The position numbers and the translations under genes are program-made. A DNA stretch of 13,348 bases from a virus (Duplodnaviria; Heunggongvirae; Uroviricota; Caudoviricetes): IMG/VR virus record IMGVR_UViG_2565956618_000002; one strand, 5' to 3'. Below, piece by piece: positions 1 through 13,348 of this stretch. Within the stretch, counting starts at the first letter, position 1. Each line of letters opens with the position of its first letter. The notes below the pieces were generated by a model. The model did not search any database. It worked only from the letters and a program-made list of their open reading frames with translations, and was not told the origin of the DNA.

Positions 1-547
1 CGCACTCATCACCGCGATAGGTCCAGGTGCAGGTGTTGGCCAGCATGATACGTCCCGGAAAAACAGCGCCGTCCGTTTCCGTCGGCGTGGACAGTACAAA
101 AGAGGCACTCACCGCGCTCAGTTCGCTGCACTGCTCAATGCGCCAGCGGCTGATCACCTCCTGCTCCGGATCGGCGTCGCTGTTTCCGTTGACGAAGTTC
201 ACCGCATCCAGAAAACGGGCGTAAACCTTACGCCTGACCACCGTTCCGCCGACCAGACTCTGCAGATCTTCCACCATCCCGGTGACCATACCGTACAGGT
301 TAGAAACCGTCAGTGTCGGACGGGCAGCACTGCCCTTGCCGTTCAGTTCAAATCCCGTCCCCTGAATGGGGTATACCTGATACTGCCGCCCCTGCCAGAT
401 AACCGGCTCACCTTTTTCGTTCTGCTCATTACAGAAAAAATAACGTTCACCACCGACCTCTGTCAGATCGATTTCCCAGAGCACCACCTGGGCTGACTGA
501 GTGAGGCGTGTCGTCTCATGATGTGTTTCCTGTGGAATATCCTGCAT
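1..547 (-). CDS. L: Minor tail protein L (tail tip assembly), N-terminal part only; gene continues past the window start
   Basis: ATG at 547..545 preceded by AGGAGG. Manual translation gives MQDIPQETHHETTRLTQSAQVVLWEIDLTEVGGERYFFCNEQNEKGEP..., near-identical to lambda gpL as recalled. Follows M as in lambda. The ORF track misses it because there is no stop inside the window. Confidence 0.9.
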   Translation of the reverse strand, partial: MQDIPQETHHETTRLTQSAQVVLWEIDLTEVGGERYFFCNEQNEKGEPVIWQGRQYQVYPIQGTGFELNGKGSAARPTLTVSNLYGMVTGMVEDLQSLVGGTVVRRKVYARFLDAVNFVNGNSDADPEQEVISRWRIEQCSELSAVSASFVLSTPTETDGAVFPGRIMLANTCTWTYRGDEC

Positions 548-556
548 CAGAGCCTC

Positions 557-886
557 CTATGCCACGACCTGTTCAAAATCTGCCGTTATGGTTACCCACA
601 GCGCCCCCACGCTTGCCGACCATTTACGACAAACCACCCTGATCGGTTTCCAGTCATAAGGTGGCGTCCACTGAAATGCACGGACGCCACCGTGCCGTTC
701 CAGAAAGGCTTTTAAAGATGGGTGGTCACATTTACGAACACGTATCGTCACGCTGTAAGTCGACAACTGGTTATTCAGTCCCGCCGCACGACGCTGTTCA
801 TAACCATCGCCCAGCTTCACTGTCACCACTTTCGGCTCTGATACCACATTCATATCCGGGCGCACTTTCCAGTGAAACGTCTCCAT
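557..886 (-). CDS. M: Minor tail protein M
   Basis: 109-aa ORF (METFHWKVRPDMNVV...WTPPYDW...FEQVVA), same length as lambda gpM and clearly homologous. Its ATG overlaps the H stop codon (TAATG). Confidence 0.92.
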   Translation of the reverse strand: METFHWKVRPDMNVVSEPKVVTVKLGDGYEQRRAAGLNNQLSTYSVTIRVRKCDHPSLKAFLERHGGVRAFQWTPPYDWKPIRVVCRKWSASVGALWVTITADFEQVVA

Positions 887-3800
887 TACCGATATGCTCC
901 ACTTAACCGACCACCATCACGGGCCTGCTGTTGCATAAAGTCCGCTGCCGCTTTTTTCCCGAGGTCATAAACCGCCTTCAGGGCAGCCGGACCTATCTGC
1001 CCGTTCGTGCCATCGTTATTGATCTCGATGTTGTACTGCGGGGCAAACATCGCCATACCTGAACCACCAATATCCGCCACAACCCCCAGCTTACCGTCAG
1101 CACCACGACGCAGTGGCAGAATGGCTTCAGGTCCCGCTTCCCCCATCACACCCGCGCCTTTTGCAAAAGCAAAAAACGTCGGACGGTTAACCACCGTGCC
1201 ACTGTAACGACTCAAATCAGCAGACTGATAAATCCCCCCATTGGCATTCAGGGAAAGGCTGCTGAGATCAAATCCCAGTACACTGCCAATCCCTTTTATC
1301 GATTTCATCATGGTTGCCTGCGCCAGGATTTTCGCCATATCTGACAGCACAGAAGAGGTGAAGGATTTGAAATTGAGTTTGCCGGTAGTGACAAAAGTTG
1401 CCAGGCCATTTCCCATGTTGCTGAAGGCTGACGAGAACACCTGTTCTGCTGTTCCTGCCGTATTATCTGCATCCACGGTAAAATTCTGAAATGCACGCAG
1501 GACTCCGTTTTTCCAGTTACCCTGCACAACTTCAAGCTGTTGCCAGTAACGGCGATTCTCATTCAGTTGTCGGTTCAGGCTCTCCGTCAGCGCCTGCTCG
1601 GCCTTTCTGTAGTCATCCGTGTTATATGTTCCTTTCTGCTCACTATCCCGCCTCAACTGCTCCAGCTGTTGCTGGTATTTCTGGCGAAGACTCAGTTGTA
1701 CCTGATATCGCTGCCGCTGCTGATCACCCATACCCACCGTGGCGATATCCAGGTCATGTTGCTGACGCTGAGCGCGCTCTTCTTCAGCCAGTTGACTGGT
1801 CAGCTGAATTGTTTTTTTCTTCAGCTCGTTGAGTGCCGTCTGTTTCTGAAGCTCCTGCTGTTTTACATCCAGCAGCGTCAGTGCCTGAATCAGTTCATCT
1901 TTACGGGCCAGCACACTCTTTTCATCTGCCGTCAGTTTTTTCCCGTCCAGGTCGCTGATGCGCTGCTGCAGAGCCAGAAGCTGTTTATGCGCTTCTGTCA
2001 TCCTTTCCGTGGCAATGCCTGCTGACTGTCTGGCAGCAGCAATCTGTCCTTCCACCTGTGCCTGTTGCTGACTGTACTGCAGCAATAACCGGGTGGCCTC
2101 ATCATTACGGGGTTCGCGTGTTTTTTTCTTACCGGATGCCAGGGCTTTCTCGTAACGTTCATTTTCACGTTGTATCGCCGCATCCCTGACAGCCTGATCG
2201 GCGTACTGCATGGAATTAATACGCGCAATTTCACGCTGATGTCGTGCTGCTTCCGTTTCATTCATCCGGTTCAGTGCAGCATTTTCAGCATTACGGCGTT
2301 TCTGTTGCTCCTGATAATTCTGCTCTGCCTGCTCTTTTGCATCCTGCAAATCCTTCTGGCGTTTTTTCTCCTGAAGCTCGTTAAGACGCTGCTGATCGTA
2401 CTCAACCTGAGAAGATGATGCCGTCCAGGGGAGTCTTTTCGCCCGCGACACTTTCTCCTGTAAAGCGGAAATCTGTTCATCCAGCGAGTCTTCACGACCA
2501 ATATTCATGGCCGCATCCCAGAAACGACTCCATAAATCAGACAGATACTTCAGCGTACTGCCCAGCGCATTGAGGTTATTATCAATATCCGCAGTACGCC
2601 GACCGGTTTCCTCTGCCAGTGCAGACATGGCTATCCGTGCCGCATCACTGGACCGCCCCTGTTCCCCAAGGACGCGTATCTGCTCAAGCTGAGTGGCAGT
2701 AAGAAAATGCAGCTCATTGTCCAGAGCCTTCGCGGCATTTACAGGATCATCCTTCAGCCGCTTAAACTGATTTATGGTATCGCTGACCGACTGGCCAACC
2801 GATCGCTCCATCTGTGCGGCAGCTCTCGCCACCATACCGATATCGTTTCCACGAAATGCACCACTCCCCACCACCTGAGCCAGCGCACCGGCTGCAGCAT
2901 GTTGCGTGATACCATTCCCGGAAATAGCACGACTGAGCGTCCACAGCTGCCCGGCAGTGACTCCGGCATAATGCCCCGTCAGCGACAACTGGCGGTTAAA
3001 TTCTTCCCCCTCCTTCTGACCATCATACCAGGCTTTACCCAGACCATAGACGGCCGCGGCAATACCGCCAATAACCCCGCCCAGCATCATGCCTTTCGGT
3101 GACATCAGTGTGTCTATCCATCCGGCACGGTTAGCCAGCGTTATCCCGGATCCCCTCAGCGCACCTAAATTGCCGCGAGCCAGTTCAACTATCAGAACGC
3201 CTATCTCCTGGCGGGCCGCTGCACTTTTCAGACCCAGCGAATGCGTGGCTTTTCCTGCCTGCTCCATTTTGCGGATATACACTTCTGCAGCACTGCTTAC
3301 CCCCAGCTGGGCAGCCTTAGCACGAAGCAACTCAGAAGAAGAAAGATTCTGGCGGGTTGCCTGCTCTTTAAGCTGACGGATAAACGCCACTTTCTGTCGG
3401 GTAGCCTCTTCCTCAGCCTGTGTAAGAACACGGGTTTTCGCAGTAACCTCAGAAATCAGCGCCAGATAATCCTGCTGACCAATCCCGCCACTGTTTCTGG
3501 CCTGTCGGATCTGCTGCTGAATACGCTGTAATTCCTGCAGCCCCGCACTGGCCTGTTTCACACTGTCAATCTGACGATAAAACGCAGCAGCCGCTTTATC
3601 CTGAGCCTCCGCCAGAGCCATGGCCTGCGCCTGTTCCTCGCGCATTTTCTGGCTCAGTGCCTCCATGCGCTGGCGGGTTTTCTCCACCTCGCGGGCCATG
3701 CGTTCATGAGCCTGTGCGTTCTTCTCCACCGTCTGCGCATGGACGGATGCGGCTGTTGCAGCCGAAGAAGCTGCCTGCGTTGTCTGCCGGGCGGCCTGAG

Positions 3801-3951
3801 TCTGACGCTCCATAAAACGCTGCATACGGGCAGAAGACCGTTCTGCATCGCTGGCTGCACCATTCAGAAGGTTTTTGATACGGGGAATTTCATTTTTAAA
3901 CTCTGCCGCATCAATCCCCAAATCAATGACCAGGTTGGCTATCTGGTCCAT
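886..3951 (-). CDS. H: Tail tape measure protein (lambda gpH-like), about 1021 aa
   Basis: Long ORF. N-terminus MDQIANLVIDLGIDAAEF resembles lambda H MAEPVGDLVVDLSLDAARF; C-terminus INNDGTNGQIGPAALKAVYD...RDGG closely matches the lambda H C-terminus; centre is Q/E/R/K-rich coiled coil. Start placed at ATG 3951 (GGAGG upstream); the track's 3981 start is a TTG extension. Confidence 0.9.
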   Translation of the reverse strand: MDQIANLVIDLGIDAAEFKNEIPRIKNLLNGAASDAERSSARMQRFMERQTQAARQTTQAASSAATAASVHAQTVEKNAQAHERMAREVEKTRQRMEALSQKMREEQAQAMALAEAQDKAAAAFYRQIDSVKQASAGLQELQRIQQQIRQARNSGGIGQQDYLALISEVTAKTRVLTQAEEEATRQKVAFIRQLKEQATRQNLSSSELLRAKAAQLGVSSAAEVYIRKMEQAGKATHSLGLKSAAARQEIGVLIVELARGNLGALRGSGITLANRAGWIDTLMSPKGMMLGGVIGGIAAAVYGLGKAWYDGQKEGEEFNRQLSLTGHYAGVTAGQLWTLSRAISGNGITQHAAAGALAQVVGSGAFRGNDIGMVARAAAQMERSVGQSVSDTINQFKRLKDDPVNAAKALDNELHFLTATQLEQIRVLGEQGRSSDAARIAMSALAEETGRRTADIDNNLNALGSTLKYLSDLWSRFWDAAMNIGREDSLDEQISALQEKVSRAKRLPWTASSSQVEYDQQRLNELQEKKRQKDLQDAKEQAEQNYQEQQKRRNAENAALNRMNETEAARHQREIARINSMQYADQAVRDAAIQRENERYEKALASGKKKTREPRNDEATRLLLQYSQQQAQVEGQIAAARQSAGIATERMTEAHKQLLALQQRISDLDGKKLTADEKSVLARKDELIQALTLLDVKQQELQKQTALNELKKKTIQLTSQLAEEERAQRQQHDLDIATVGMGDQQRQRYQVQLSLRQKYQQQLEQLRRDSEQKGTYNTDDYRKAEQALTESLNRQLNENRRYWQQLEVVQGNWKNGVLRAFQNFTVDADNTAGTAEQVFSSAFSNMGNGLATFVTTGKLNFKSFTSSVLSDMAKILAQATMMKSIKGIGSVLGFDLSSLSLNANGGIYQSADLSRYSGTVVNRPTFFAFAKGAGVMGEAGPEAILPLRRGADGKLGVVADIGGSGMAMFAPQYNIEINNDGTNGQIGPAALKAVYDLGKKAAADFMQQQARDGGRLSGAYR

Positions 3952-4650
3952 AACGCACACCTCCGGAAATACCTTCCCCAAGATGCATCAGTTCTTCGTC
4001 CGTTCGCTCCGGTATCCCGTTCTCTTCCGGTAAAAGGCTGAAATCAGCCACCGCAGCATCACTGCTACCGGACACCATTCTCACGATCAATGCCTTCAGC
4101 GAGGCAAACTGCGCATCCATCCACACATCACTGAAGCTCTGCATCCGGAAATAATCGCCCCACTCACCAAGCTCAGTGGCCGACATTTCCGACAGCATCC
4201 GCCGCCAGTCTGCCCGCCGGAACTCCCGGGCAAGCCGCATGACAAACTGCATTTCCCGCGTCAGGACTTTTCCGGCGTCAGCACCTCATGCTCCAAATCC
4301 CCGGCATTCTCAATGACTCCCATACCGCTCAGCGACAGAACCATCTCCGCCCCCGCTCCCAGGGCATCATACGACCATGTTGTAATAACGGATGCGCAAA
4401 GCGTCTCAACATCCTGAGACTGTTCCGCATTCCACAGTGAGCGGGAAACCAGCCAGGCATTGATATCCATCCCCATCCGCAGAAAAGCAATCTGTCGTTC
4501 AGCCTCCGGCAGTTCTCCCTCTTCGGCATCAAACTTTGCCGTTCGCTGCTGAACAAACGCCAGATATTCAATTCTCTGCAGCCCGGACAGCTCACTGAGC
4601 ACCACGGACTGCTTTTCATAATTAAACGTGCCCTGTTTCAGAAACATCAT
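3923..4650 (-). CDS. Tail assembly chaperone G-T fusion made by programmed -1 frameshift near the end of G
   Basis: The T-frame ORF (MQFVMRLAREFRR...) is open upstream through the G stop in the -1 frame. Reading GGA AAA GTC CTG ACG CGG GAA ATG CAG... joins the frames at the run GGAAAAG (plus-strand 4267..4273). Position and arrangement match lambda G/GT. Confidence 0.7.
4261..4650 (-). CDS. G: Tail assembly chaperone G
   Basis: MMFLKQGTFNYEKQSVVLSELSGLQRIEYLA... resembles lambda gpG (MFLKTESFEHNGVTVTLSELSALQRIEHLA...). ATG at 4650 with GGAG upstream; the track start at 4689 is a TTG extension. Confidence 0.85.
   Translation of the reverse strand: MMFLKQGTFNYEKQSVVLSELSGLQRIEYLAFVQQRTAKFDAEEGELPEAERQIAFLRMGMDINAWLVSRSLWNAEQSQDVETLCASVITTWSYDALGAGAEMVLSLSGMGVIENAGDLEHEVLTPEKS
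4267..4273 (-). other. Candidate -1 frameshift slippery site GGAAAAG
   Basis: Minus strand reads ACG CCG GAA AAG TCC TGA in the G frame; the T frame is GGA AAA GTC.... Lambda uses GGGAAAG at the equivalent place. Confidence 0.5.
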
Positions 4651-4662
4651 GTTCTCCACCTG

Positions 4663-4688
4663 CAAAAAAGCCCCGGATAACCGGGGCA
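4663..4688 (-). terminator. Candidate intrinsic terminator between V and G
   Basis: Minus strand reads GCCCCGG-TTAT-CCGGGGC followed by TTTTTTG: a 7-bp GC-rich stem, 4-nt loop and T-tract just after the V stop. Confidence 0.6.
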
Positions 4689-4707
4689 AATGATGAGTAT
4701 CGTCCTG

Positions 4708-5451
4708 TTAACCTGCGGCGCTGACAGCCACCGCAGCCACTGCCACAAAATCGCCGTCAGAAGTCATGCCCACAATGCTGACACTGCCCTGCTTCACGCC
4801 TTTCACCGTGGCCACAAGCCCGTTCAGGGTCACCGTGGCAGTCTGTGGATCTGTCGAATGCACACTGATCGCTTTGTCACTGGCTCCGTCAGGTTTTACT
4901 GTAAAGGTCAGCGTGGTGGTTGCTCCCACTTTTACACTGGCAGATGCCGGTGCCACCGTCAGCCCGGTAACGCTCACTGTTTCAGTGCCTTCCTCTGCCA
5001 GATACGGACGCCCCACACCGCTGATTTTCACTGTGCGGGTCATCACGTCTTTTGAGGCAATGGTTTTACCCAGTGAGCTCAGCCAGCCACGGAAAACATC
5101 AACAGTGCCGTTGGGATATTTGATACGAAACGCGCAGACTTCACCGGAGTCGAACAACTGAACCAGTTTTTTCTGCCCGCTGTCACCCGGACGCCAGGCC
5201 AGCGTCGCCGAAGTATCACCGACGGATTTCTGCCCCTGGGTTGTCGTTTTCCAGTCTGCATCTTCATCATCGAGATAAGTGTCATCTTCTGCATCAGCGG
5301 TCATTTCGCCAGGTTGCAGATCCTTCACCATCGCAAGACGCAGCCAGTCAGTGTCCGATAAAGGGTTCGCAAACGCATCGCCCTTGCCGGTGTACATCCA
5401 GAACGTCGTTCCCGCACCTTTCGTTTTTGCCAGTGGATTTGGTGTGGTCAT
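4708..5451 (-). CDS. V: Major tail protein V with C-terminal Ig-like domain
   Basis: MTTPNPLAKTKGAGTTFWMYTGKGDAFANPLSDTDW...LDDEDADW...YPNGTVDVFRGW... closely matches lambda gpV. ATG at 5451 with AGGAGGT 5 nt upstream; the track start at 5457 is GTG. Confidence 0.93.
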   Translation of the reverse strand: MTTPNPLAKTKGAGTTFWMYTGKGDAFANPLSDTDWLRLAMVKDLQPGEMTADAEDDTYLDDEDADWKTTTQGQKSVGDTSATLAWRPGDSGQKKLVQLFDSGEVCAFRIKYPNGTVDVFRGWLSSLGKTIASKDVMTRTVKISGVGRPYLAEEGTETVSVTGLTVAPASASVKVGATTTLTFTVKPDGASDKAISVHSTDPQTATVTLNGLVATVKGVKQGSVSIVGMTSDGDFVAVAAVAVSAAG

Positions 5452-5462
5452 TGCCACCTCCT

Positions 5463-5876
5463 TTAATTCGTGTACGTGATCTGGTACGTGATTTCCGCCA
5501 TCGCCCAGGTGGCCATCTCATTATCACGTTGATAGTTAAAACCGAGAGGGATCAGGGTGTCGATGAGTCCGGAAAGTGCCGGTATATCATTCAGGGCCGG
5601 GAAAATGGTGCTCTCCATCCACATATCCAGCTCTGAATCCGGTGCCTGTGCCCGGATGAAGACAGCAATATGCAGAACAGCCTGCCAGTCATCTTCATCC
5701 GTCATTTTTCCGGTGTACTGAGCATCACTCAGCCACACCGCCACGGCAGGCAGTTCCTGCGCATCAATAAATGCCGGAAGCCCGTCAAAAAACGTGGCGC
5801 TGTCTCCACACTGTTCCCGAAGGCGTGCCAGTACGGCCTGGCGGATTTGTGTATGTCGGTTCATCGGGTCAGCCAT
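5463..5876 (-). CDS. U: Tail terminator protein U
   Basis: ...ATFFDGLPAFIDAQELPAVAVWLSDAQYTG...PDSELDMWMES...DIPALSGLI...ITYQITY matches lambda gpU. ATG at 5876 (GAGG upstream); an alternative ATG at 5864 overlaps the Z stop as ATGA. Confidence 0.9.
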   Translation of the reverse strand: MADPMNRHTQIRQAVLARLREQCGDSATFFDGLPAFIDAQELPAVAVWLSDAQYTGKMTDEDDWQAVLHIAVFIRAQAPDSELDMWMESTIFPALNDIPALSGLIDTLIPLGFNYQRDNEMATWAMAEITYQITYTN

Positions 5877-6439
5877 AACCTCAGTTGTTGTTTCAGTGCA
5901 TACCCCAGCTGTTTCGGCATTTCCGCAGCAATAATGCGGTCGCGGGCATCTTCAAATGCCTGTGTCAGCGGTCCGGACAGCGGGACTTTCACCACATCAA
6001 TGGGGTAACGATTTTTGCCATCAATACGCCGCATCACATGCCAGCGACCATTCGCCAGTTGCTGAATAAACGCATCCCGGAAAAGATATTTACCCACCTT
6101 CAGCACACTGCCACGGTACTGCAGTTTTCCACCACGCCGGGCCAGTCTGACCCGGGCTGTCCCCAGCTTAATAGCGGGCAGATTGCCCCGGTTAACGCGG
6201 ATCCTGGCCGTCATTTTTCCTGACGGACTGGCTTTAAACACCCGGACACGCTGACGTACCAGTTTCAGGGGGATCCCTTTCACCTGGTTATCTCCCGCAA
6301 CGGTATTCCCGGCAACCTGCCGGGTGGCGACCGAGACCGCTTTCTGTGCCACACGGTTTATCGCCCATGCGCTGGCCTGTGGCACCATACGGGTATCAAG
6401 GCTGTTCAGATTACGGATGGCATTCTCAAGCCCCTTCAT
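5861..6439 (-). CDS. Z: Minor tail protein Z-like (tail completion)
   Basis: 192 aa, the same length as lambda gpZ, and in the lambda Z position between FII-like and U. ATG at 6439 with AGAGGTG upstream. Confidence 0.7.
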   Translation of the reverse strand: MKGLENAIRNLNSLDTRMVPQASAWAINRVAQKAVSVATRQVAGNTVAGDNQVKGIPLKLVRQRVRVFKASPSGKMTARIRVNRGNLPAIKLGTARVRLARRGGKLQYRGSVLKVGKYLFRDAFIQQLANGRWHVMRRIDGKNRYPIDVVKVPLSGPLTQAFEDARDRIIAAEMPKQLGYALKQQLRLWLTR

Positions 6440-6450
6440 CCCACACCTCT

Positions 6451-6726
6451 TTACTCAATAAAGATCATTGGCTTACCGTTAAAACGTTCATGCCGTGTGA
6501 CCGTCCATTGTTGTCCGTCATAAACAACGCGATCCCCGCGCCGTGGGCGGTATCCCGAAGAAAACACCACCAGAGAGACCGCAGGTCCGGACAGAGCATT
6601 CAGCTCTGCCAGTGTTTCTCCCGGGATCACAGTCATATCGACATCATTAATCGAGGCTGTCTTTCCCATCTTTCTAACCGTGATAGCATCCATACGCGCT
6701 GCCAGCCGGGAAAAGGGATCAGACAT
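6451..6726 (-). CDS. Head-tail joining protein (lambda FII-like)
   Basis: 91 aa. MSDPFSRLAARMDAITVRKMGKTASI... and ...RRGDRVVYDGQQWTV resemble lambda FII (MADFDNLFDAAIARADETIRGYMG..., ...RRGDTLTIGEENFWV) as recalled. Sits between head genes and Z. Confidence 0.65.
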   Translation of the reverse strand: MSDPFSRLAARMDAITVRKMGKTASINDVDMTVIPGETLAELNALSGPAVSLVVFSSGYRPRRGDRVVYDGQQWTVTRHERFNGKPMIFIE

Positions 6727-7042
6727 TGAGTTTTACCGGCACTTCTTCTGCACTGGTTCCGGCATCTGCCCAGACAACCCCGACCAGCGGATCAGAGCCG
6801 CTGTTAGTCAGCTGAACTTTTCCGGACTTCAGATAAACCTTCTTACCCGTTTTCATGTCATCCGTTTTCAGCTTAGGCAGCATAAACACACCTTCGGTCA
6901 TGCCGTCGCCTGTTTCACCCTGTGGAATATCGGTCAGCGCCACCGCAAAAACATCGCCCACCTGCACCAGATCTCCGCTGCTGATGGCTGCACTGGCAAC
7001 AATCGCCACCGTTTTTCCTTCTTCTACAAAATTCTTTGCCAT
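6719..7042 (-). CDS. Small head-associated protein (DUF2190-like), function unclear
   Basis: 108 aa from ATG 7042 (MAKNFVEEGKT...), GGAG upstream. Immediately downstream of the capsid gene, where such small proteins commonly sit in HK97-like head modules. Assignment by position and composition only. Confidence 0.55.
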   Translation of the reverse strand: MAKNFVEEGKTVAIVASAAISSGDLVQVGDVFAVALTDIPQGETGDGMTEGVFMLPKLKTDDMKTGKKVYLKSGKVQLTNSGSDPLVGVVWADAGTSAEEVPVKLNV

Positions 7043-7084
7043 AACTGTCTCCGCACAGCCCCGTTCAGGGGCTGATTTCAGGTA

Positions 7085-7106
7085 CAAAAAAAGCCCTTAC
7101 GGGCCA
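7085..7106 (-). terminator. Candidate intrinsic terminator or attenuator after the capsid gene
   Basis: Minus strand reads GCCCGTAAGGGC followed by TTTTTTTGTAC, about 25 nt after the capsid stop (7129). Short 4-bp stem, so weak. Confidence 0.45.
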
Positions 7107-7128
7107 TCAGAGTTGTTGTCTGCGACGT

Positions 7129-9087
7129 TTACGCCGTACATTTCACCAGACCGCGGTGATCAACTGGCGCGACACCGGCGTCAATACGCACTTTCGTTGT
7201 CACGCCATCCACACTGAAGCCCTCCATCTGATCAATATATGGCGTATCCACACCGTTGAGATAAGCCACTTCAATCGTATCGGAGCCTTTTGACGCAGCC
7301 AGGTAGAAGGTGGTCTGGCTGTTATCATCAAGACGAGGCTCTGCAATAACGGTCGCAAAATCTTTCACCGGGTTAATAATACCGGCGTTAATGTCAGCCC
7401 CCTTGACACTTGAGGAGCGAATGACCTGGTTAGCAACAGACTCCATCGCCGTCGGTACCAGTACGAACGCAGGACGAATATTCAGATGACGCTCCCCCTC
7501 TTTCTGAACGCGCATCAACTGGCGGGCTTTATCCAGCGATGCCACGTCCATTGCAGCGCTCTCCAGTACGTTTGCATGTTTCGCTTTATCGAACAGACTT
7601 ACATTATCTGTGGAGATTTTCGGGTTAGACGTCAGAATGGCATAAACCAGATCGGCAATAGTGGATTTCGCCGCACGGCCCAGTTTCATCGGGACATCGG
7701 TCAGCATATTCAGATCATCATTGATAATGGCCTGACGGGTGATACTGAACAGCTCGCCATAGGTCGCCAGTGCAATAGTGGCCTGTTTATCTCCGGTGGT
7801 GACGTATTTATATTCCGCCCCTTCACGCACCTGACGCAGAGCACTGAAGCCCCCCATACCCACACGATGGGCAATTTTAAAATCAGACAACTGACCTTTC
7901 CGCGTCCACTGTTCATAGGTTTCAGGGGCATCTTCCCAGCCCTGCAGAATGGCTTTGTTCGCAACATCCAGCAGAATATTACCGAAGTCAGACGTACTGT
8001 GTGTGAACGCCGCACCGACCATCTGCATCGGGTTATAACCGGAAACCCCAATACCCCGTTCAGTTAGTGACATACGGGCATATTCACGCAGGGTCATCCC
8101 GTTGTAGACATTATCACGTTCGGTTTTTTCAAATCCGGCACGCGCCATCAGCGCCTGGCGGATCCCGTCCCCCACAAAATTACCGTTACCGGCATAAATA
8201 TGAGCCGGGGTATTTTTATTGGATGGCGTGGACTCGCGCCCCATCTCGTTCAACAGCTTTTCACGGGCCTGCTCCAGCGAACATTCAGGATCGGCAAGAC
8301 ACTGGGCCTGCAGCATCTGATAACGCCCGCCAAACATGGCAAACAGATCATTAATACCGTTTACACGCGCTTTTTGCTCTGCCAGTACCTGCGCACGGAT
8401 ACTGTTTTCATCCACCACGGGTGCTGCTGCCTGCACTGGCGTCCGGGAGGCTGCAGGTTCATCATCCTGTACGCGTGGAGCACTGTTGCGTGGCGGAGTA
8501 ATCATGTTTCGAATGGATTCCGGCATCTTTTTAAATTCCTCTGTACGTTTTGACTGAATACATGCCATTGCCTTAACGGCTGGTGTCACCTGATCAGCAA
8601 ATCCCTGTGCCAGACATTCGGCACCGGACATCCAGGTCTCATCCGCCAGCATGGCAGCAATTTCATCGGTGGTTTTCCCGGTTTTCTGTGCATAAGCGGG
8701 TAACAGAACCGCCTCAACTTTATCGAGCAGGTCGGCATAGGTGCGCATGTCCTCCGCATCACCGCCCGTAAAGCCAAATGGTTTATGAATCATCATGAAG
8801 GAGTTTTCCGGCATAATGACCGGGTTTCCCACCATCGCAATGACCGACGCCATTGACGCCGCCACACCGTCGACATAAACGGTAATGGACGCACCATGTG
8901 TTTTCAGTGCATTAAAAATGGCGATGCCTTCAAAGACATCGCCACCCGGTGAATTAATATGGAGATTAATGTGGGTGATATCGCCCAGTGCATTCAGATC
9001 ACTGATAAACTGCTTCGCTGTAACACCCCAGAAACCAATCTCGTCATAAATATAAATATCCGCGTCACTCTGGTGACCTGCCTGCAT
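7129..9087 (-). CDS. Prohead protease (ClpP-like) fused in frame to an HK97-fold major capsid protein
   Basis: N-terminal part has ClpP-like motifs (IYIYDEIGFWGVTAKQFISDL, INSPGGDVFEGIAIFNA, GVAASMASVIAMVG, MIHKP); C-terminal ~340 aa has major-capsid character. Start tentatively ATG 9087 (MQAGHQSDADIYIY), about 652 aa; weak RBS, so the start is uncertain. Confidence 0.8.
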   Translation of the reverse strand: MQAGHQSDADIYIYDEIGFWGVTAKQFISDLNALGDITHINLHINSPGGDVFEGIAIFNALKTHGASITVYVDGVAASMASVIAMVGNPVIMPENSFMMIHKPFGFTGGDAEDMRTYADLLDKVEAVLLPAYAQKTGKTTDEIAAMLADETWMSGAECLAQGFADQVTPAVKAMACIQSKRTEEFKKMPESIRNMITPPRNSAPRVQDDEPAASRTPVQAAAPVVDENSIRAQVLAEQKARVNGINDLFAMFGGRYQMLQAQCLADPECSLEQAREKLLNEMGRESTPSNKNTPAHIYAGNGNFVGDGIRQALMARAGFEKTERDNVYNGMTLREYARMSLTERGIGVSGYNPMQMVGAAFTHSTSDFGNILLDVANKAILQGWEDAPETYEQWTRKGQLSDFKIAHRVGMGGFSALRQVREGAEYKYVTTGDKQATIALATYGELFSITRQAIINDDLNMLTDVPMKLGRAAKSTIADLVYAILTSNPKISTDNVSLFDKAKHANVLESAAMDVASLDKARQLMRVQKEGERHLNIRPAFVLVPTAMESVANQVIRSSSVKGADINAGIINPVKDFATVIAEPRLDDNSQTTFYLAASKGSDTIEVAYLNGVDTPYIDQMEGFSVDGVTTKVRIDAGVAPVDHRGLVKCTA

Positions 9088-9100
9088 CCTGAACCAGGAA

Positions 9101-10609
9101 TTATTCTTCGGACTGGTCGTCGGTGTGCTGCGGCTCCTGTCGTTTCGTTGCGGCACTGCTGCCTCCTTTATCACTGGCCGGATCGGTATCAAATACCAGA
9201 TCCAGCTTGCGGTTTTCATCAATTTCGGCCTTGCGCCGACGTTTGACATCATCCGGATTACGACCACCTGCACGTACCCAGTCTGATTCTGTCGCCGCTC
9301 CACCACGAATCTGAATTTTCCAGGCCTCAGCCTCCTTAACAGGGTCAATCCACGGCATCACCGGTCCGGAATACACCGCGGTATACAGTGAAGATCGGTC
9401 CAGATCGCGGGGTAGCCTGATAACACCGGATGCCACAGCCTGTTTCAGCCAGGCACGGTACATCGGGCGGGTGACGGCACCAATAAACCAGTCCTGCAGG
9501 ATCAGGTAGCCATCAGTAGATTCAACCAGCTCCTGACGCTGGGCGCTGTAAGTGCCGTTATAGTTGCGCGCTGTACTGGAAAAACTCAGACGACTGCCCG
9601 CAGCCACGGCACGCAACTGACCATTACGAAAAGTTTCAAGGTTAGGATTGGGGCGATCCGACTTCACCATTCCGATTTCTTCGCCGGGTTTCAGATCGTC
9701 GTAAATAATGCCTGGCTGAATGGTAAGCTCGCGTTCATTCTCCTTGCTGTCATTACCATCCGTTTCATAGCTCTGTCCGTCGCCTTTCCGGATGTACATC
9801 CCCAGAGCAGCGGCGATCCTTGCTGCAGTCAGCTCAGAATCTTCATACTCTTTCAGAGCACTGAGGCGGATCAGCACACCGGACAACAAAGACGTCCCGC
9901 GCATCTGGTGCAGACGGCGAACAAATTTAAGATGCAGCATTCGCTCTGCATCCACTTCTTTGGTTTCCATCTGCCGCCCGGATACGGGACGGCTTTTATA
10001 CACCAGATATTTTTCGGGACGCCCCCAGTCATCAACAAACACGCCCTGATTCAGCCTGTTGCTCTCATCACTGGTCATGGGAATAAAGTCCGGCTCGAGC
10101 GCCTCCAGCCAGAAATGAACACCGGCAGAAGGCGTCAAGCTGTTTATGCGCCCGGAAACCATCTGGGCAAACACCTCACCATCGCGCAGCCAGGTACGCA
10201 GCATCAGACGTTCCAGCATCGGACGGGTAAACTGCCCGGTGACTTCCGGACTGACAGACCATTCACTCCATCGGGTGCGTATCTCCGCTGCCAGATCACG
10301 GGCAATGGCCCCATTGCGTAATACCGGATGTGGCTCGACAATAATCCCGTTTTTCCCCACCACCCGTTCTTCCAGCTTGTCAAATACACCAATGACCAGA
10401 TCGTGGTTGTTATCAAGGTAACGGGCCTGCTCACGTAACGACACGGCCCCGTACTGGCTTAACTGGTCGGCAGTTCGGTTCTCCCGTCGGGCTTTGTGTG
10501 TCCGCGTCGTTTTTACGGCCTCATAAGCCTGAATCACCGCACGGGAACGCAGCCTTGCCGCTTTCCATCCTGGTGAAAAAACGCCAATCACATCATCAAG
10601 AATTGCCAT
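9101..10609 (-). CDS. Portal protein
   Basis: About 503-aa ORF between the gpW-like gene and the protease/capsid gene. ATG at 10609 overlaps the W stop (TGATG). Not similar to lambda gpB by eye, so the call rests on position and size. Confidence 0.8.
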   Translation of the reverse strand: MAILDDVIGVFSPGWKAARLRSRAVIQAYEAVKTTRTHKARRENRTADQLSQYGAVSLREQARYLDNNHDLVIGVFDKLEERVVGKNGIIVEPHPVLRNGAIARDLAAEIRTRWSEWSVSPEVTGQFTRPMLERLMLRTWLRDGEVFAQMVSGRINSLTPSAGVHFWLEALEPDFIPMTSDESNRLNQGVFVDDWGRPEKYLVYKSRPVSGRQMETKEVDAERMLHLKFVRRLHQMRGTSLLSGVLIRLSALKEYEDSELTAARIAAALGMYIRKGDGQSYETDGNDSKENERELTIQPGIIYDDLKPGEEIGMVKSDRPNPNLETFRNGQLRAVAAGSRLSFSSTARNYNGTYSAQRQELVESTDGYLILQDWFIGAVTRPMYRAWLKQAVASGVIRLPRDLDRSSLYTAVYSGPVMPWIDPVKEAEAWKIQIRGGAATESDWVRAGGRNPDDVKRRRKAEIDENRKLDLVFDTDPASDKGGSSAATKRQEPQHTDDQSEE

Positions 10610-10821
10610 CAGAACCTCGCCAGCCGGTACCCGGGATGCCCCCGTCGTCGTGTAATCAGAGCCGCAAGGCGGCGCTCCCACTCCTGCCGTCCCTGCCGGA
10701 TCTCAGATAAGTTTTCCATGGTCATCTGCTGACCATTAAAAGTGACGGATTTTCCGTCCAGCACCGCCATTTCAGCTTCCGTATAACGCTGAATCATGGC
10801 TTCAATATCATTCTGATTCAT
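10609..10821 (-). CDS. W: Head completion / head-tail joining protein, lambda gpW-like
   Basis: 70 aa from ATG 10821 (GGAGG 6 nt upstream). C-terminus ...ITRRRGHPGYRLARF resembles lambda gpW ...TQRRRGPAGFYV. Its ATG overlaps the terminase stop (ATGA). Confidence 0.75.
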   Translation of the reverse strand: MNQNDIEAMIQRYTEAEMAVLDGKSVTFNGQQMTMENLSEIRQGRQEWERRLAALITRRRGHPGYRLARF

Positions 10822-12650
10822 AACCATCCTCCGGAAGTCAGCCAGGGGTTAACATCGTCAGTTACTGTTTTCTTCCGTTTTTGTTTTTTAACAGGCGTGG
10901 ATACCGGCTCCGGTGAGGGTGACGGTTCGGTACTGTCCGGGACACACTCCAGCCAGGTTTCCCGGCTCGCCCACTCCGGTGCATCCGGCCAGCGGATCTT
11001 TTCGTATCCATGCAGAATGACCAGCGCCTCGGCATACACCATCAGGTCAAAAGCTTCGTTGGCACCGCGACCCGGCTTACTCCATTTCCCGTCACTGCTC
11101 CGCTCTTCATACGTCAGTTCGTCGTAAAACCAGCTCCCCAGCCAGTCAGGGAAATGCACATAGCCTGGACCTGGCGAGTCACGCCATAACGCGTTATTCA
11201 CCCGGTCTTTCAGGGCATCCGTCTGAAGAAGCCAGAGCGGCACATCACCTGCGGCCTGCGCCCGGCGGCCCGTTCGTCCGGTGTTATCAGGGAATGTACG
11301 GCTGATCAGTTTTGCGCGCCGGATGCTGTCGCCCTTAAACAGGTAAATACGTTTACCAAGGCCATCACGACGGCAACGACGCCAGAATTTATAGGCATTA
11401 TCAGTGACCCCGTCTTCACCGCCGGAATCCACCGCCATTGCCATCAGTCGCATTTGTTGAGAAGGATCGGAGGCCAGCGGCCAGCTTTTATGAAAAACAT
11501 CCGTCAGCAGGACATCCCAGTCTTCCGGATAGCTGGCCGGATCAATTCGCTGGCTCTCCCCGTCGCAGTCACTGCGCAATGACTGCGTGATGTTGTAACG
11601 ATCAATAATCCAGCGTTCGCCACGGCTGCCATAGCCCGTTACCTGAACCACAAAACGGCGATGACGTCCCGCCTGCACATCCACTGTCGCCACAAGGAAA
11701 TTAACGCCATCCGGAACACTGCGGGAAGGAACTGGCTCTGCCCGCTGCTCAAGCAGTTCACTTTTTCGTTGCTCCATGCTGGCACGAGGAAGATAAGGCA
11801 ATCCCCAGTCGGTGTTGATAACCGCCCTGAGTGTTTCTTCGCTTCCTGTCGCTTCATACTCCTGTTCTGCAGTCAGTAATTTGTAAACCAGTTGCGCCCA
11901 GGTCTGATACGCAGCAGCTGGCCCTTCCATCCAGAAACTGGCGATACGGGAGCGGCGCGGTTCACCGGAAACGTTGCCGTTACGATCAATGACCTGACCT
12001 TCACGTAACCAGACTCCTGCACTATTGAGCTCACGCTTTTTCTCCGCAGTGATAATGCCGCTGCAGTGCGGGCAAAGTAGATACGCCGCCTCACTGGCTT
12101 TAAAGGGATCCGGTTCATTACGGTAGCCGGTCATGGCATCCATAGCTGGCTGAAAATATTCACCGCAGTGCGGACATGGCCAGTACCAGCGGCGGCGGTC
12201 ACCACGATTGTAAAGGGAAAGAATACCAGTCGTCGGTGGCGCTTCATGAGGCGACTTACGTCGCCATTTGCTGTCGCAGATGTCACGTCCCGGCGAGCTC
12301 TCCACCAGAGTCATCCCGGCGGACATAAATGTGGTGGTACGTTTTGAGGCCAGGGAGAAACCATCACCCTCGCTGTCGATATTCTCCGGAAAACGGTCGT
12401 AATCGGTTAAGGCGACAAACCGGTAATCCGACGACGACATAATGTTGACCGAGGGCCAACCAATTTTAAGGAACGAGCCATCCCTGAACGTCTTATCATG
12501 GACATTATTGTCGTTACGACGTGGACTCATTCTTTTCTTTACCGCCGCACTGCTTCTGAACGTTCTGTCGAGGCGCTTTTTAGAATGCTCGCGGGCCTTA
12601 TCTGATGCGCCGCGCGATAAATGCACTCTATCTTGTGCGATAAATGGCAT
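10818..12650 (-). CDS. Large terminase subunit (lambda gpA family), apparently 5'-truncated and possibly inactive
   Basis: 610-aa ORF with strong gpA-like regions (WPCPHCGEYF zinc-finger-like motif as lambda ACPHCGEE; VALTDYDRF near the lambda Walker B VAGYDE). No P-loop/Walker A motif is present, and similarity starts around lambda residue ~95-125. The frame is closed 30 bp below the invertase stop. Confidence 0.85.
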   Translation of the reverse strand: MPFIAQDRVHLSRGASDKAREHSKKRLDRTFRSSAAVKKRMSPRRNDNNVHDKTFRDGSFLKIGWPSVNIMSSSDYRFVALTDYDRFPENIDSEGDGFSLASKRTTTFMSAGMTLVESSPGRDICDSKWRRKSPHEAPPTTGILSLYNRGDRRRWYWPCPHCGEYFQPAMDAMTGYRNEPDPFKASEAAYLLCPHCSGIITAEKKRELNSAGVWLREGQVIDRNGNVSGEPRRSRIASFWMEGPAAAYQTWAQLVYKLLTAEQEYEATGSEETLRAVINTDWGLPYLPRASMEQRKSELLEQRAEPVPSRSVPDGVNFLVATVDVQAGRHRRFVVQVTGYGSRGERWIIDRYNITQSLRSDCDGESQRIDPASYPEDWDVLLTDVFHKSWPLASDPSQQMRLMAMAVDSGGEDGVTDNAYKFWRRCRRDGLGKRIYLFKGDSIRRAKLISRTFPDNTGRTGRRAQAAGDVPLWLLQTDALKDRVNNALWRDSPGPGYVHFPDWLGSWFYDELTYEERSSDGKWSKPGRGANEAFDLMVYAEALVILHGYEKIRWPDAPEWASRETWLECVPDSTEPSPSPEPVSTPVKKQKRKKTVTDDVNPWLTSGGWL

Positions 12651-12680
12651 CCACGCGGCGTTTCATTATTTGAAAAAGAA

Positions 12681-13253
12681 TTACATTTCAGGTTGCGTTA
12701 TGACAGTCCCAACAGGGTGATAGCGGTAGATCGTTGACAGTCCAATATCATAGATAATTGCCAGCCGCTTTCTGTCATACCCTTTCTGGAGCAATCTTGC
12801 GATCTGCTCATGCTGCTCCTTCGTCAGTTTCGGGCGACGTCCTCCAACTCTTCCTTGTGCTCGCGCAGCAGCCAGTCCTGCCAGCGTGCGCTCAACTATC
12901 AGTTCACGCTCCATTTCTGCCAGTGCACCCATCATATGAAAAAAGAACCTTCCCATCGGAGTGCTGGTATCGATTGAATCCGTCAGACTGCGAAAATTGA
13001 CACCTTTTGCGCGTAGCTCTTCTGTGAGAGCAATGAGGTGTTTCATTCTTCTACCCAACCGATCCAGCTTCCAGACCACCAATGTATCCCCTCTTTTAAG
13101 GCACTTTAAAGCGCGTTTCAGGCCTGGTCGTTCCGACTTGGTTCCGCTCATTTTGTCCTCAAAAATCTGTTCACATCCTGCGCACATTAATGCATTGCGT
13201 TGCAAATCTGTGTTTTGGTCATTTGTTGACACACGTATGTAGCCAATCAGCAT
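12681..13253 (-). CDS. pin: Serine DNA invertase of the Pin/Gin/Hin/Cin family
   Basis: MLIGYIRVSTNDQNTDLQRNALMCAGCEQIFEDK...GDTLVVWKLDRLGR...GRFFFHMMGALAEMERELIVERTLAGLAAARAQGR.GGRRPKLT... is almost co-linear with e14 Pin and Salmonella Hin as recalled; catalytic Ser in YIRVST. ATG at 13253; the track's extension to 13343 starts at a non-ATG codon and is not used. Confidence 0.93.
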   Translation of the reverse strand: MLIGYIRVSTNDQNTDLQRNALMCAGCEQIFEDKMSGTKSERPGLKRALKCLKRGDTLVVWKLDRLGRRMKHLIALTEELRAKGVNFRSLTDSIDTSTPMGRFFFHMMGALAEMERELIVERTLAGLAAARAQGRVGGRRPKLTKEQHEQIARLLQKGYDRKRLAIIYDIGLSTIYRYHPVGTVITQPEM

Positions 13254-13307
13254 TAAAAATACTCCCTTTTGAGTGGTTAAAGTACTGAGATAATGTGGGG
13301 AGGATTT

Positions 13308-13333
13308 GAGAGATAAACGTTGGTTTGGGGGAA
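13308..13333 (-). other. Candidate invertase crossover site (hix/gix-like), about 55 bp upstream of pin
   Basis: Minus strand reads TTCCCCCAAACCAACGTTTATCTCTC; it matches hixL (TTCTTGAAAACCAAGGTTTTTGATAA) at 15 of 26 positions, including the AAACC-AA-(G)GTTT core. The right half is diverged. Confidence 0.3.
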
Positions 13334-13348
13334 GGCTCTGCATTGCCT

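What the first reader, a model, noticed from the sequence alone, without database searches (positions are those of the whole stretch)
7129..9087. Single ORF encoding a ClpP-like prohead protease fused to the major capsid protein
A protease domain with ClpP-like serine and histidine motifs, a linker, and a capsid domain are in one roughly 650-aa reading frame. This would give built-in delivery of the maturation protease and a scaffold-like delta region, in contrast to lambda's separate C, Nu3, D and E genes. The start codon is uncertain (weak RBS at 9087, 14-nt overlap with the portal).
Basis: partly seen in the sequence, partly recalled or inferred. Interest (0 to 1): 0.4.

Follow-up and report, generated by a model that had tools for sequence, protein, structure and literature searches.

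The report
Known phage protease–scaffold–capsid fusion gene
This is an intact copy of a well-described prophage head gene (the Gifsy-2 / mEp460 type) that makes the capsid-maturation protease, a scaffold-like segment and the major capsid protein as one polypeptide; it is real but ordinary, being present in about 40% of complete E. coli genomes and already named as such by NCBI.

Summary
One uninterrupted minus-strand frame (stop at 7129) encodes an N-terminal ClpP-like protease (Pfam CLP_protease, aa 31-191), a variable Pro/Ala-rich linker plus a scaffold-like helical segment (about aa 200-380), and a C-terminal capsid domain (Pfam Phage_capsid_4, aa 377-672).

The whole protein scores 985 bits against NCBIfam NF045540, [quoted passage not shown] (cut-off 475). 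It is 100% identical at DNA level to the E. coli ATCC 25922 prophage gene and about 99% to phages mEp460, cdtI and phi458. It is 69% identical to the Salmonella phage Gifsy-2 "tripartite capsid gene" product, studied by cryo-EM in 2010.

Two details need correcting:
- **Start codon:** the start is more likely GTG 9156, which has an AAGGAGG ribosome-binding site and gives 675 aa. It overlaps the portal gene by 56 nt.
- **ATG 9087:** this codon lies 13 nt after the portal stop, so there is a gap, not a 14-nt overlap. Its Met is not conserved in the family.

In passing, the prophage's large-terminase gene is cut at 12603/12604 by the end of a Mu-like transposable prophage, so this copy probably cannot package DNA.

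The parts
7129..9156 (-). Whole CDS of the protease-scaffold-major capsid protein fusion (675 aa plus stop), using the favoured GTG start
   Evidence: ORF. NF045540 985 bits against a cut-off of 475. Same coordinates as PGAP CDS WP_001136586.1 in ATCC 25922.
9162..9168 (-). Shine-Dalgarno AAGGAGG, 5 nt upstream of GTG 9156
   Evidence: Sequence. Anti-SD duplex -11.6 kcal/mol, the strongest of 59 in-frame start candidates.
9085..9087 (-).
   Evidence: SD energy only -2.2 kcal/mol. Met24 is not conserved: Gifsy-2 and MD8 lack it and only 13/128 family members have it. mEp460 annotation.
8572..9066 (-). ClpP-related head-maturation protease domain (aa 31-195). Catalytic Ser101 is at 8854-8856, His124 at 8785-8787, and the acidic Glu173 at 8638-8640.
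   Evidence: Pfam CLP_protease 31-191. NF045542 217 bits against a cut-off of 120. ClpP structures at E 1e-15 to 1e-20. Residue conservation.
8407..8571 (-). Junction and variable Pro/Ala/Thr-rich linker (aa 196-250), the least conserved and most indel-rich part of the protein
   Evidence: Alignment A1, columns 225-270. Conservation minimum 0.24-0.26 and gap maximum at aa 211-255 in 128 sequences.
8017..8406 (-). Scaffold-like (delta/Nu3-like) helical segment (about aa 251-380)
   Evidence: Collinear similarity to lambda gpC residues 191-425, which include Nu3 (E 0.008). This is the only region AF2 predicted with some confidence (helices 250-304, pLDDT 62-84). It is shared with protease-scaffold families phrog_94 and phrog_53 and with NF045541. 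The scaffold function is inferred.
7132..8016 (-). Major capsid protein domain (about aa 381-675), Mu gpT-like, HK97-fold family
   Evidence: Pfam Phage_capsid_4 377-672, E 6.6e-55, and Mu-like_gpT. The profile hits solved capsid proteins 8RKC (JBD30) and 9JOD (Mu) at E 9e-13 and 5e-12.
7086..7105 (-). Terminator-like hairpin GGCCCGTAAGGGC followed by a T7 run, 24 nt after the stop codon
   Evidence: The homologous site is annotated as a rho-independent terminator in mEp460.
9101..10609 (-). Upstream neighbour: lambda-family portal gene (502 aa). Its last 56 nt overlap the fusion gene.
   Evidence: Pfam Phage_portal_2. TIGR01539 458 bits. PGAP coordinates.
6719..7042 (-). Downstream neighbour: separate head decoration (cement) protein gene (107 aa)
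   Evidence: Pfam Phage_cement_2, E 1.4e-20. Annotated as 'head decoration' in mEp460 and MD8.

Best explanation
The gene is the single head-shell gene of a lambdoid (mEp460 / cdtI / Gifsy-2-type) prophage. It is translated, most likely from GTG 9156, into a 675-aa precursor with three parts: a ClpP-fold serine protease (Ser101-His124-Glu173), a flexible linker plus a helical scaffold-like segment, and a Mu gpT-like HK97-fold capsid domain.

The following mechanism is inferred from Gifsy-2, HK97 and lambda. The precursor co-assembles on the portal into a T=7 procapsid, with the protease and scaffold parts facing inward. Every shell subunit therefore brings its own protease and scaffold. The protease then removes the N-terminal ~380 residues and digests them, leaving a capsid protein of about 295 aa (~32 kDa). 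The shell expands during DNA packaging and is cemented by trimers of the separately encoded decoration protein (6719-7042).

Shown here: the sequence architecture, family membership, conservation of the catalytic residues, and synteny. Inferred: the assembly pathway, the cleavage position and the stoichiometry.
For: - **Domains and family:** Pfam CLP_protease plus Phage_capsid_4 in one frame. NF045540 full-length hit, 985 bits against a cut-off of 475. phrog_133 full-length hit, 1200 bits.
- **Close relatives:** 100% DNA identity to PGAP-annotated 'ClpP-like prohead protease/major capsid protein fusion protein'. The gene is present in 2125 of 5426 complete E. coli genomes. It is 99% identical to viable phages mEp460, cdtI, phi458, Ayreon and Tritos.
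- **Studied orthologues:** 69% identity over the full length to the Gifsy-2 gene, with the same gene order: terL, W-like, portal, fusion, decoration, connector, Z, U, V, G, T, H. It is 56% identical to MD8 gp5, whose paper describes protease, scaffold and MCP in one gene.
- **Family breadth:** more than 125 clusters at 50% identity are full-length fusions with E below 1e-97. They keep Ser101 in 127/128, His124 in 128/128 and an acidic residue at 173 in 122/128.
- **Capsid domain:** the C-terminal profile hits solved capsid proteins of JBD30 and Mu at about 1e-12.
- **Scaffold-like segment:** it is collinear with lambda gpC/Nu3.
- **No rival capsid gene:** no other capsid gene lies between portal and tail genes.
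- **Literature:** Gifsy-2 prohead protease and coat genes are fused (PMC12315714). Gifsy-2 has trimeric decoration at 3-fold axes (PMC8538268).
Against: - There are no experimental data for this exact protein.
- The cleavage site and the mature N-terminus are not known to me, because the Gifsy-2 paper itself was not readable here.
- Both AlphaFold runs failed (pLDDT 35.6 and 31.0). The HK97 fold therefore rests on sequence homology to solved capsids, not on a model made here.
- The third catalytic residue aligns as Glu173, not Asp.
- In this particular genome the prophage's terminase gene is interrupted. The gene may therefore never yield virions here.
Confidence: 0.95

Rival explanations
1. 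The gene encodes only a protease/scaffold protein (lambda C/Nu3 equivalent), as many GenBank records label it, and the capsid protein is encoded elsewhere.
For: Phage records annotate the orthologue as 'putative protease/scaffold protein', 'head-tail preconnector protein Nu3' or 'head maturation protease'.
Against: The C-terminal 300 aa match Phage_capsid_4 at E 6.6e-55. They also match solved capsid proteins of Mu and JBD30 at about 1e-12. Every other gene from portal to tape measure has a different assignment, so no other capsid gene exists in the module. Other records for the same gene say 'Major head protein' or 'Major Capsid Protein'.
Confidence: 0.01
2. The long ORF is an artefact: a sequencing or assembly frameshift merged a separate protease gene and a separate capsid gene.
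For: Most phages have a stand-alone ClpP-like protease. Only 80 of 1649 matching phage records cover at least 80% of the query. Artefactual read-throughs do occur at this locus: 1159-aa portal-protease-capsid proteins arise from scattered 1-nt indels.
Against: The same uninterrupted frame is present in 2017 complete E. coli genomes at 80% coverage or more, in Gifsy-2 and in MD8. More than 125 diverged clusters match in a single stretch across aa ~20-672. A curated full-length HMM exists for it.
Confidence: 0.01
3. Besides the full-length precursor, an internal in-frame start (for example ATG 8526, Met211, just after the protease domain) yields a protease-less scaffold-capsid protein. This would resemble Nu3 nested in lambda C, so that only a fraction of shell subunits carry a protease.
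For: Lambda makes Nu3 this way (annotation). Met211 sits at the protease/linker boundary and is invariant among close relatives. There is a GAGGA about 11 nt upstream (-6.0 kcal/mol). Full stoichiometry would put about 415 proteases in one T=7 procapsid, which seems excessive (inference).
Against: Met211 is not conserved in the wider family: Ala 34, Val 24, Thr 14 and Ile 14 of 128. The SD-like match is weak, has long spacing, and is explained by Glu-Glu codons. No promoter-like site lies inside the gene. There is no experimental hint.
Confidence: 0.05
4. In this genome the gene is an intact but functionally stranded relic. The prophage cannot package DNA because its large-terminase gene is split by a Mu-like prophage, so the fusion protein could at most build empty proheads.
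For: Homology to the ATCC 25922 prophage (99.98%) stops at 12603, which is 314 nt into terL. From 12599-12604 onward the sequence is the terminus of a ~38-kb Mu-like transposable prophage. The remaining terL ORF lacks the first ~105 codons.
Against: This concerns the locus, not what the gene encodes. The capsid gene itself is 100% identical to copies in other genomes. The other part of terL may be intact beyond the Mu-like element. A helper or recombination with another prophage could rescue the genes. The window ends before the rest can be seen.
Confidence: 0.6

Closest known systems
Salmonella phage Gifsy-2 'tripartite capsid gene' product (YP_001700678, 696 aa; Effantin et al. 2010, Virology 402:355)
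   Same: 69% identity over the whole length, and much higher in the capsid domain. Same order of protease, central segment and capsid. Same neighbours: lambda-type portal upstream with an overlapping start, and a separate decoration gene downstream. The fused protease and coat genes are stated in PMC12315714.
   Different: The N-terminal ~27 residues and the linker differ in sequence and length. Gifsy-2 has no Met at the position of ATG 9087. The host is Salmonella.
E. coli phages mEp460 (gp05), cdtI, phi458, Ayreon, Tritos and the ATCC 25922 prophage gene WP_001136586.1
   Same: 99-100% nucleotide identity across all 2028 nt. This is essentially the same gene.
   Different: Only the annotation differs. 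Starts are given as ATG (652 aa, mEp460) or GTG (675 aa, PGAP). Names range from 'Nu3' to 'major capsid protein'.
Pseudomonas phage MD8 gp5 'protease and major capsid protein' (PMC8508860)
   Same: 56% identity over the full length. The paper infers protease (about aa 15-210), a scaffold-like middle and an HK97/Mu-like capsid domain from HHpred and Phyre2.
   Different: Different host and a longer linker. No virion protein data were cited in the passages read.
NCBIfam NF045541 'prohead protease/major capsid protein fusion protein' (scaf_prot_MCP2)
   Same: Shares the scaffold-like plus capsid part: aa 220-672 align to profile positions 176-630, 402 bits.
   Different: The score is below that family's cut-off of 525. 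Its N-terminal protease part does not match the ClpP-like domain here, so it is a sister fusion family and this protein is not a member.
Phage HK97 gp4 protease plus gp5 (delta domain fused to capsid protein)
   Same: Scaffold function built into the capsid precursor and removed by a phage protease; HK97-fold shell (established knowledge; summarised in PMC8508860).
   Different: In HK97 the protease is a separate gene of a different family (herpesvirus-like S78/U35, not ClpP-like). HK97 cross-links its shell and has no decoration protein.
Phage lambda C / Nu3 / D / E
   Same: Lambda-type portal, terminase and tail genes. Weak collinear similarity of aa 120-324 to gpC residues 191-425, which include Nu3 (E 0.008). 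A separate small decoration protein is present.
   Different: Lambda's protease-scaffold (C/Nu3, S49 family) and capsid protein E are separate genes. There is no detectable sequence similarity to gpE (E 1.1) or gpD (E 0.95).
Phage Mu gpT and Pseudomonas phage JBD30 gp38 major capsid proteins (PDB 9JOD, 8RKC)
   Same: The capsid domain is homologous to them: profile E 5e-12 and 9e-13. JBD30 also uses trimeric minor capsid proteins.
   Different: These are stand-alone ~305-aa capsid proteins, with separate scaffold and protease genes (JBD30 gp33 and gp37).

Membership tests
NCBIfam NF045540: ClpP-like prohead protease/major capsid protein fusion protein | Full-length match to the family HMM above its curated cut-off | tested here: met
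   984.9 bits against a cut-off of 475; aa 32-674 align to profile positions 2-651 of 652.
NCBIfam NF045540: ClpP-like prohead protease/major capsid protein fusion protein | N-terminal ClpP-related head-maturation protease with catalytic Ser and His | tested here: met
   NF045542 217 bits against a cut-off of 120. Pfam CLP_protease E 2.9e-36. Ser101 and His124 align to the ClpP catalytic residues and are conserved in 127/128 and 128/128.
NCBIfam NF045540: ClpP-like prohead protease/major capsid protein fusion protein | C-terminal major capsid protein domain (HK97 fold, Mu gpT-like) | tested here: met
   By sequence: Pfam Phage_capsid_4 E 6.6e-55; profile against solved capsid proteins 8RKC and 9JOD at about 1e-12. 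The 3-D fold was not confirmed by a model made here, because both AF2 runs failed.
Gifsy-2-type tripartite capsid gene | Central ~200-residue segment with a scaffolding role | tested here: inconclusive
   The segment is present and moderately conserved. It is helical where AF2 had some confidence. It is weakly similar to lambda gpC/Nu3 (E 0.008). The function cannot be tested in silico.
Gifsy-2-type tripartite capsid gene | Position in a lambda-like head module: after the portal, before a separate decoration gene, with no other capsid or scaffold gene | tested here: met
   terL, W-like, portal, fusion gene, Phage_cement_2, connector, Z, U, V, G, T, H.
Gifsy-2-type tripartite capsid gene | Autoproteolytic removal of protease and scaffold to give the mature ~32-kDa shell protein; T=7 capsid | not testable with these tools
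   Needs virion or prohead protein chemistry and cryo-EM. Known only for Gifsy-2 from the literature (Effantin 2010, not readable here).
Cellular ATP-dependent ClpP (TIGR00493 and related equivalogs) | Score above the ClpP equivalog cut-off; stand-alone ~200-aa subunit | tested here: not met
   59.9 bits against a cut-off of 308.6 for TIGR00493. All ClpP models fall far below their cut-offs. The protein is related in fold and catalytic residues only.
NCBIfam NF045541: prohead protease/major capsid protein fusion (second type) | Full-length match above the cut-off | tested here: not met
   402.3 bits against a cut-off of 525; only aa 220-672 align.

The most novel reading that the evidence does not exclude
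The most novel reading not excluded is that the gene yields two nested products: the full protease-scaffold-capsid precursor and a protease-less scaffold-capsid protein from an internal start such as Met211. The ratio of the two would set how many proteases are enclosed in each procapsid, as a one-gene version of lambda's C/Nu3 trick. The evidence leans against it. Met211 is not conserved across the family, its Shine-Dalgarno match is weak, and no internal promoter-like site was found.
Probability: 0.04. Interest if true: 0.3.

Novelty: already known. Interest (0 to 1): 0.07.

Why it matters
The finding matters little as a discovery. The architecture has been published since 2010 and has its own curated NCBI family, and the same gene sits in roughly two of every five complete E. 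coli genomes.

Its practical value is for annotation:
- Many phage records still call this gene 'Nu3', 'protease C' or 'protease/scaffold' and so appear to lack a capsid gene.
- The start codon is annotated inconsistently (ATG 9087 or GTG 9156).

The biology of the family still has open points: cis or trans cleavage, how a ClpP-fold domain works when tethered to hexamers and pentamers, and the exact cleavage site. This window adds nothing new to them.

Tried and rejected
1. **AlphaFold2, full length.** The 675-aa protein with a 15-sequence alignment gave pLDDT 35.6.
2. **AlphaFold2, C-terminal domain.** The C-terminal 363 aa with 24 sequences gave pLDDT 31.0. Both models are unusable because the admissible homologues are all at least 73% identical, so no fold search was run.
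3. **Single-sequence search of the capsid domain against PDB sequences.** This gave only weak hits (E 2e-4). A profile built from 16 diverged representatives raised this to about 1e-12.
4. **Reading the Gifsy-2 paper (PMID 20427067).** It is not held, so the mature N-terminus reported there could not be cited.
5. **Internal-start hypothesis (Met211).** Rejected as a family feature.
6. **Programmed portal-to-capsid frameshift.** The 1159-aa database proteins suggested this, but it was rejected. The frame switches are scattered over 9133-9346, as expected of random 1-nt indels.
7. **Lambda-type GGGAAAG slippery site at the G/T junction.** Not found there; the 3 matches lie elsewhere and are at chance level.
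8. **BLASTP against lambda gpE and gpD.** No similarity.
Full report
**Observation.** The window's genes run almost entirely on the minus strand. The frame that ends at stop TAA 7131-7129 is open for 739 codons, back to 9348.

Pfam finds CLP_protease at aa 31-191 (E 2.9e-36) and Phage_capsid_4 at aa 377-672 (E 6.6e-55), plus a Mu-like gpT hit (675-aa numbering throughout). GVAAS101MAS and MMIH124KP align with the catalytic Ser and His of solved ClpP subunits. The position of the catalytic Asp is occupied by Glu173, next to Asp172. A protease domain, a linker and a capsid domain therefore do lie in one reading frame.

**Start codon.** The portal gene (lambda family, TIGR01539 458 bits) ends with TAA at 9103-9101. 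Its ribosome-binding site is indeed poor (-2.2 kcal/mol).

GTG 9156 is preceded by AAGGAGG with a 5-nt spacer (-11.6 kcal/mol), the best of all 59 in-frame start candidates. Several further points favour it:
- PGAP uses GTG 9156, while the mEp460 GenBank record uses the ATG.
- The Gifsy-2 and MD8 orthologues have no Met at the ATG-9087 position, yet they share the upstream SW(F/Y) motif.
- Among 128 diverse family members, that position is Ile or Leu far more often than Met (13/128).
- The Gifsy-2 and MD8 genes are also annotated to overlap the end of their portal genes, by 86 and 29 nt.

I therefore place the gene at 7129-9156, overlapping the portal gene by 56 nt. No experiment settles this.

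**Identity.** The full-length protein scores 984.9 bits against NCBIfam NF045540, [quoted passage not shown] (cut-off 475). The protease part alone passes NF045542, "head maturation protease, ClpP-related". Cellular ClpP models fall far below their cut-offs. PHROGs gives a full-length hit to phrog_133.

At DNA level the 2028 nt are 100% identical to the gene in E. coli ATCC 25922 and many other strains. A match is present in 2125 of 5426 complete E. coli genomes, and PGAP gives it exactly that name. Window 129-12603 is 99.98% identical to the ATCC 25922 prophage. Viable phages mEp460, cdtI, phi458, Ayreon, Tritos and others carry the gene at about 99% identity.

The protein is 69% identical over its whole length to the Salmonella phage Gifsy-2 protein, with identical gene order around it. 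It is 56% identical to Pseudomonas phage MD8 gp5.

**Breadth of the family.** In the phage collection, 1649 records match the protein but only 80 cover at least 80% of it. The stand-alone ClpP-like protease is therefore the common state, and the fusion is a recurrent minority.

In the library clustered at 50% identity, the 150 best representatives reach down to E 1e-97. Most are single-stretch, full-length fusions of 640-700 aa at 36-60% identity. In an alignment of 127 of them with the query:
- Ser101 is kept in 127/128.
- His124 is kept in 128/128.
- An acidic residue at position 173 is kept in 122/128.
- Conservation is lowest and gaps are most frequent at aa 211-255 (the linker).
- Conservation is intermediate at aa 256-375 and highest in the capsid domain.

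The protease is thus under selection as an active enzyme within the fusion.

**The capsid fold.** Two AlphaFold2 attempts failed (pLDDT 35.6 and 31.0). The homologues I was allowed to submit are all at least 73% identical, so I ran no fold search.

Instead I built a profile of the C-terminal ~340 residues from 16 diverged representatives and searched PDB sequences. It hits 8RKC/8RKX at E 9e-13 and 9JOD at E 5e-12, and nothing else below E 1. 8RKC is the capsid of Pseudomonas phage JBD30 (PMC11445458). 9JOD belongs to the phage Mu structure paper (PMC11915804).

The alignment places residue ~10 of these ~305-aa capsid proteins at about residue 393 here. The capsid domain proper therefore starts near residue 380. 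The MD8 paper reports HHpred and Phyre2 matches of the orthologue to Mu and HK97 capsid proteins (PMC8508860).

**The middle segment.** BLASTP against lambda gpC gives a weak but collinear alignment: aa 120-324 against gpC 191-425, 24% identity, E 0.008. It runs from the second half of the protease into the Nu3 scaffold part of gpC (Nu3 coordinates). Four further observations fit a scaffold-like, delta/Nu3-like role:
- The only stretch AlphaFold predicted with some confidence is helical (aa 250-304).
- The segment is shared with the protease-scaffold families phrog_94 and phrog_53.
- It is also shared with the second fusion family, NF045541.
- NCBI's own model names are "scaf_prot_MCP1" and "scaf_prot_MCP2".

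The function itself remains inferred. There is no detectable similarity to lambda gpE or gpD.

**Mechanism (inferred).** By analogy with Gifsy-2, HK97 and lambda, the 74-kDa precursor assembles on the portal into a procapsid with the protease and scaffold parts inside. The protease then trims off and degrades roughly the first 380 residues. The shell expands on packaging, and the separately encoded Phage_cement_2 protein (6719-7042) binds as a decoration. Trimers at 3-fold axes are reported for Gifsy-2 (PMC8538268). A terminator-like hairpin follows the gene (7086-7105) and is annotated as such in mEp460.

**Rivals.**
- *"Protease/scaffold only."* This label appears on many phage records. The capsid-domain hits and the absence of any other capsid gene in the module contradict it.
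- *Frameshift artefact.* Thousands of independent genomes and diverged orthologues exclude it.
- *A nested internal start at Met211.* This would be lambda Nu3-style, but it is unsupported. The Met is not conserved in the family, the SD is weak, and no promoter-like site lies within the gene.
- *Programmed portal-to-capsid frameshift.* Database proteins of 1159 aa join the portal to this protein, but their frame switches are scattered between 9133 and 9346. They are random single-base indels, made possible because this frame stays open 192 nt upstream of the start.

**Comparison and novelty.** This is the Gifsy-2-type tripartite capsid gene (Effantin et al. 2010, Virology 402:355; cited; the paper itself was not readable). 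The same architecture has been described for MD8-like Pseudomonas phages (PMC8508860) and for a third of Paracoccus siphovirus prophages (PMC6536676).

The useful by-products are two annotation points: the start-codon correction, and the fact that many GenBank records mislabel the gene.

**Side observation.** Homology to the ATCC 25922 prophage stops at 12603, which is 314 nt into the large-terminase gene. From there the window is identical to the terminus of a ~38-kb Mu-like transposable prophage. That element carries a DNA invertase and tail-fibre genes, then further along a MuA-like transposase, an ExeA/MuB-like protein, Gam and Mor. It sits next to a different host gene in each genome listed and splits a cysteine-hydrolase gene in strain N61.

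The end reads TGATGCGCCGCGCGATAAATGCAC..., with two GCGATAAATG repeats 23 nt apart. None of the 5426 complete E. coli genomes has this junction. The lambdoid prophage in this genome therefore has a split terminase gene and probably cannot package DNA.

Noticed in passing
window 12599-13348 (junction at 12603/12604); truncated terL ORF 10818-12650: The large-terminase gene of the lambdoid prophage is cut 314 nt from its start by the end of a ~38-kb Mu-like transposable prophage. The window holds that element's invertase gene (12681-13343) and its terminus TGATGCGCCGCGCGATAAATG..., with two GCGATAAATG repeats. No complete E. coli genome of 5426 has this junction, and the element sits in a different host gene in each genome listed.
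   Followed up: yes
window 9101-9348 (3' end of the portal gene): The fusion gene's reading frame stays open for 192 nt upstream of its start, inside the portal gene. Public databases hold at least 10 singleton 1159-aa 'portal-protease-capsid' proteins. Their frame switches are scattered over 9133-9346, so they look like random 1-nt indels or sequencing errors, not a programmed frameshift.
   Followed up: yes
window 7086-7105 and 7056-7074, minus strand: Two hairpins lie between the capsid gene and the decoration gene. GGCCCGTAAGGGC plus a T7 run is annotated as a rho-independent terminator in mEp460. CAGCCCCTGAACGGGGCTG lies just before the decoration gene's GGAG RBS. Together they may tune the capsid-to-downstream expression ratio.
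   Followed up: partly
window 9087-9099: A small inverted repeat TCCTGgttCAGGA ends on the A of ATG 9087 (minus strand). It would partly occlude that codon if it were used as a start.
   Followed up: no
window 3923-4689, minus strand (tail chaperone genes G and T): The lambda G/T-like pair is present (Phage_TAC_2, Phage_tail_T). The lambda slippery heptamer GGGAAAG is not at their junction, so the frameshift site must differ, if one is used.
   Followed up: partly
window 6451-6726, minus strand: The 91-aa protein after the decoration gene matches Pfam PF13856 'Gifsy-2'. That family is described as 'ATP-binding sugar transporter from pro-phage', and PGAP names the protein 'DNA breaking-rejoining protein'. 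Both names look misleading for what is positionally a head-tail connector gene.
   Followed up: no
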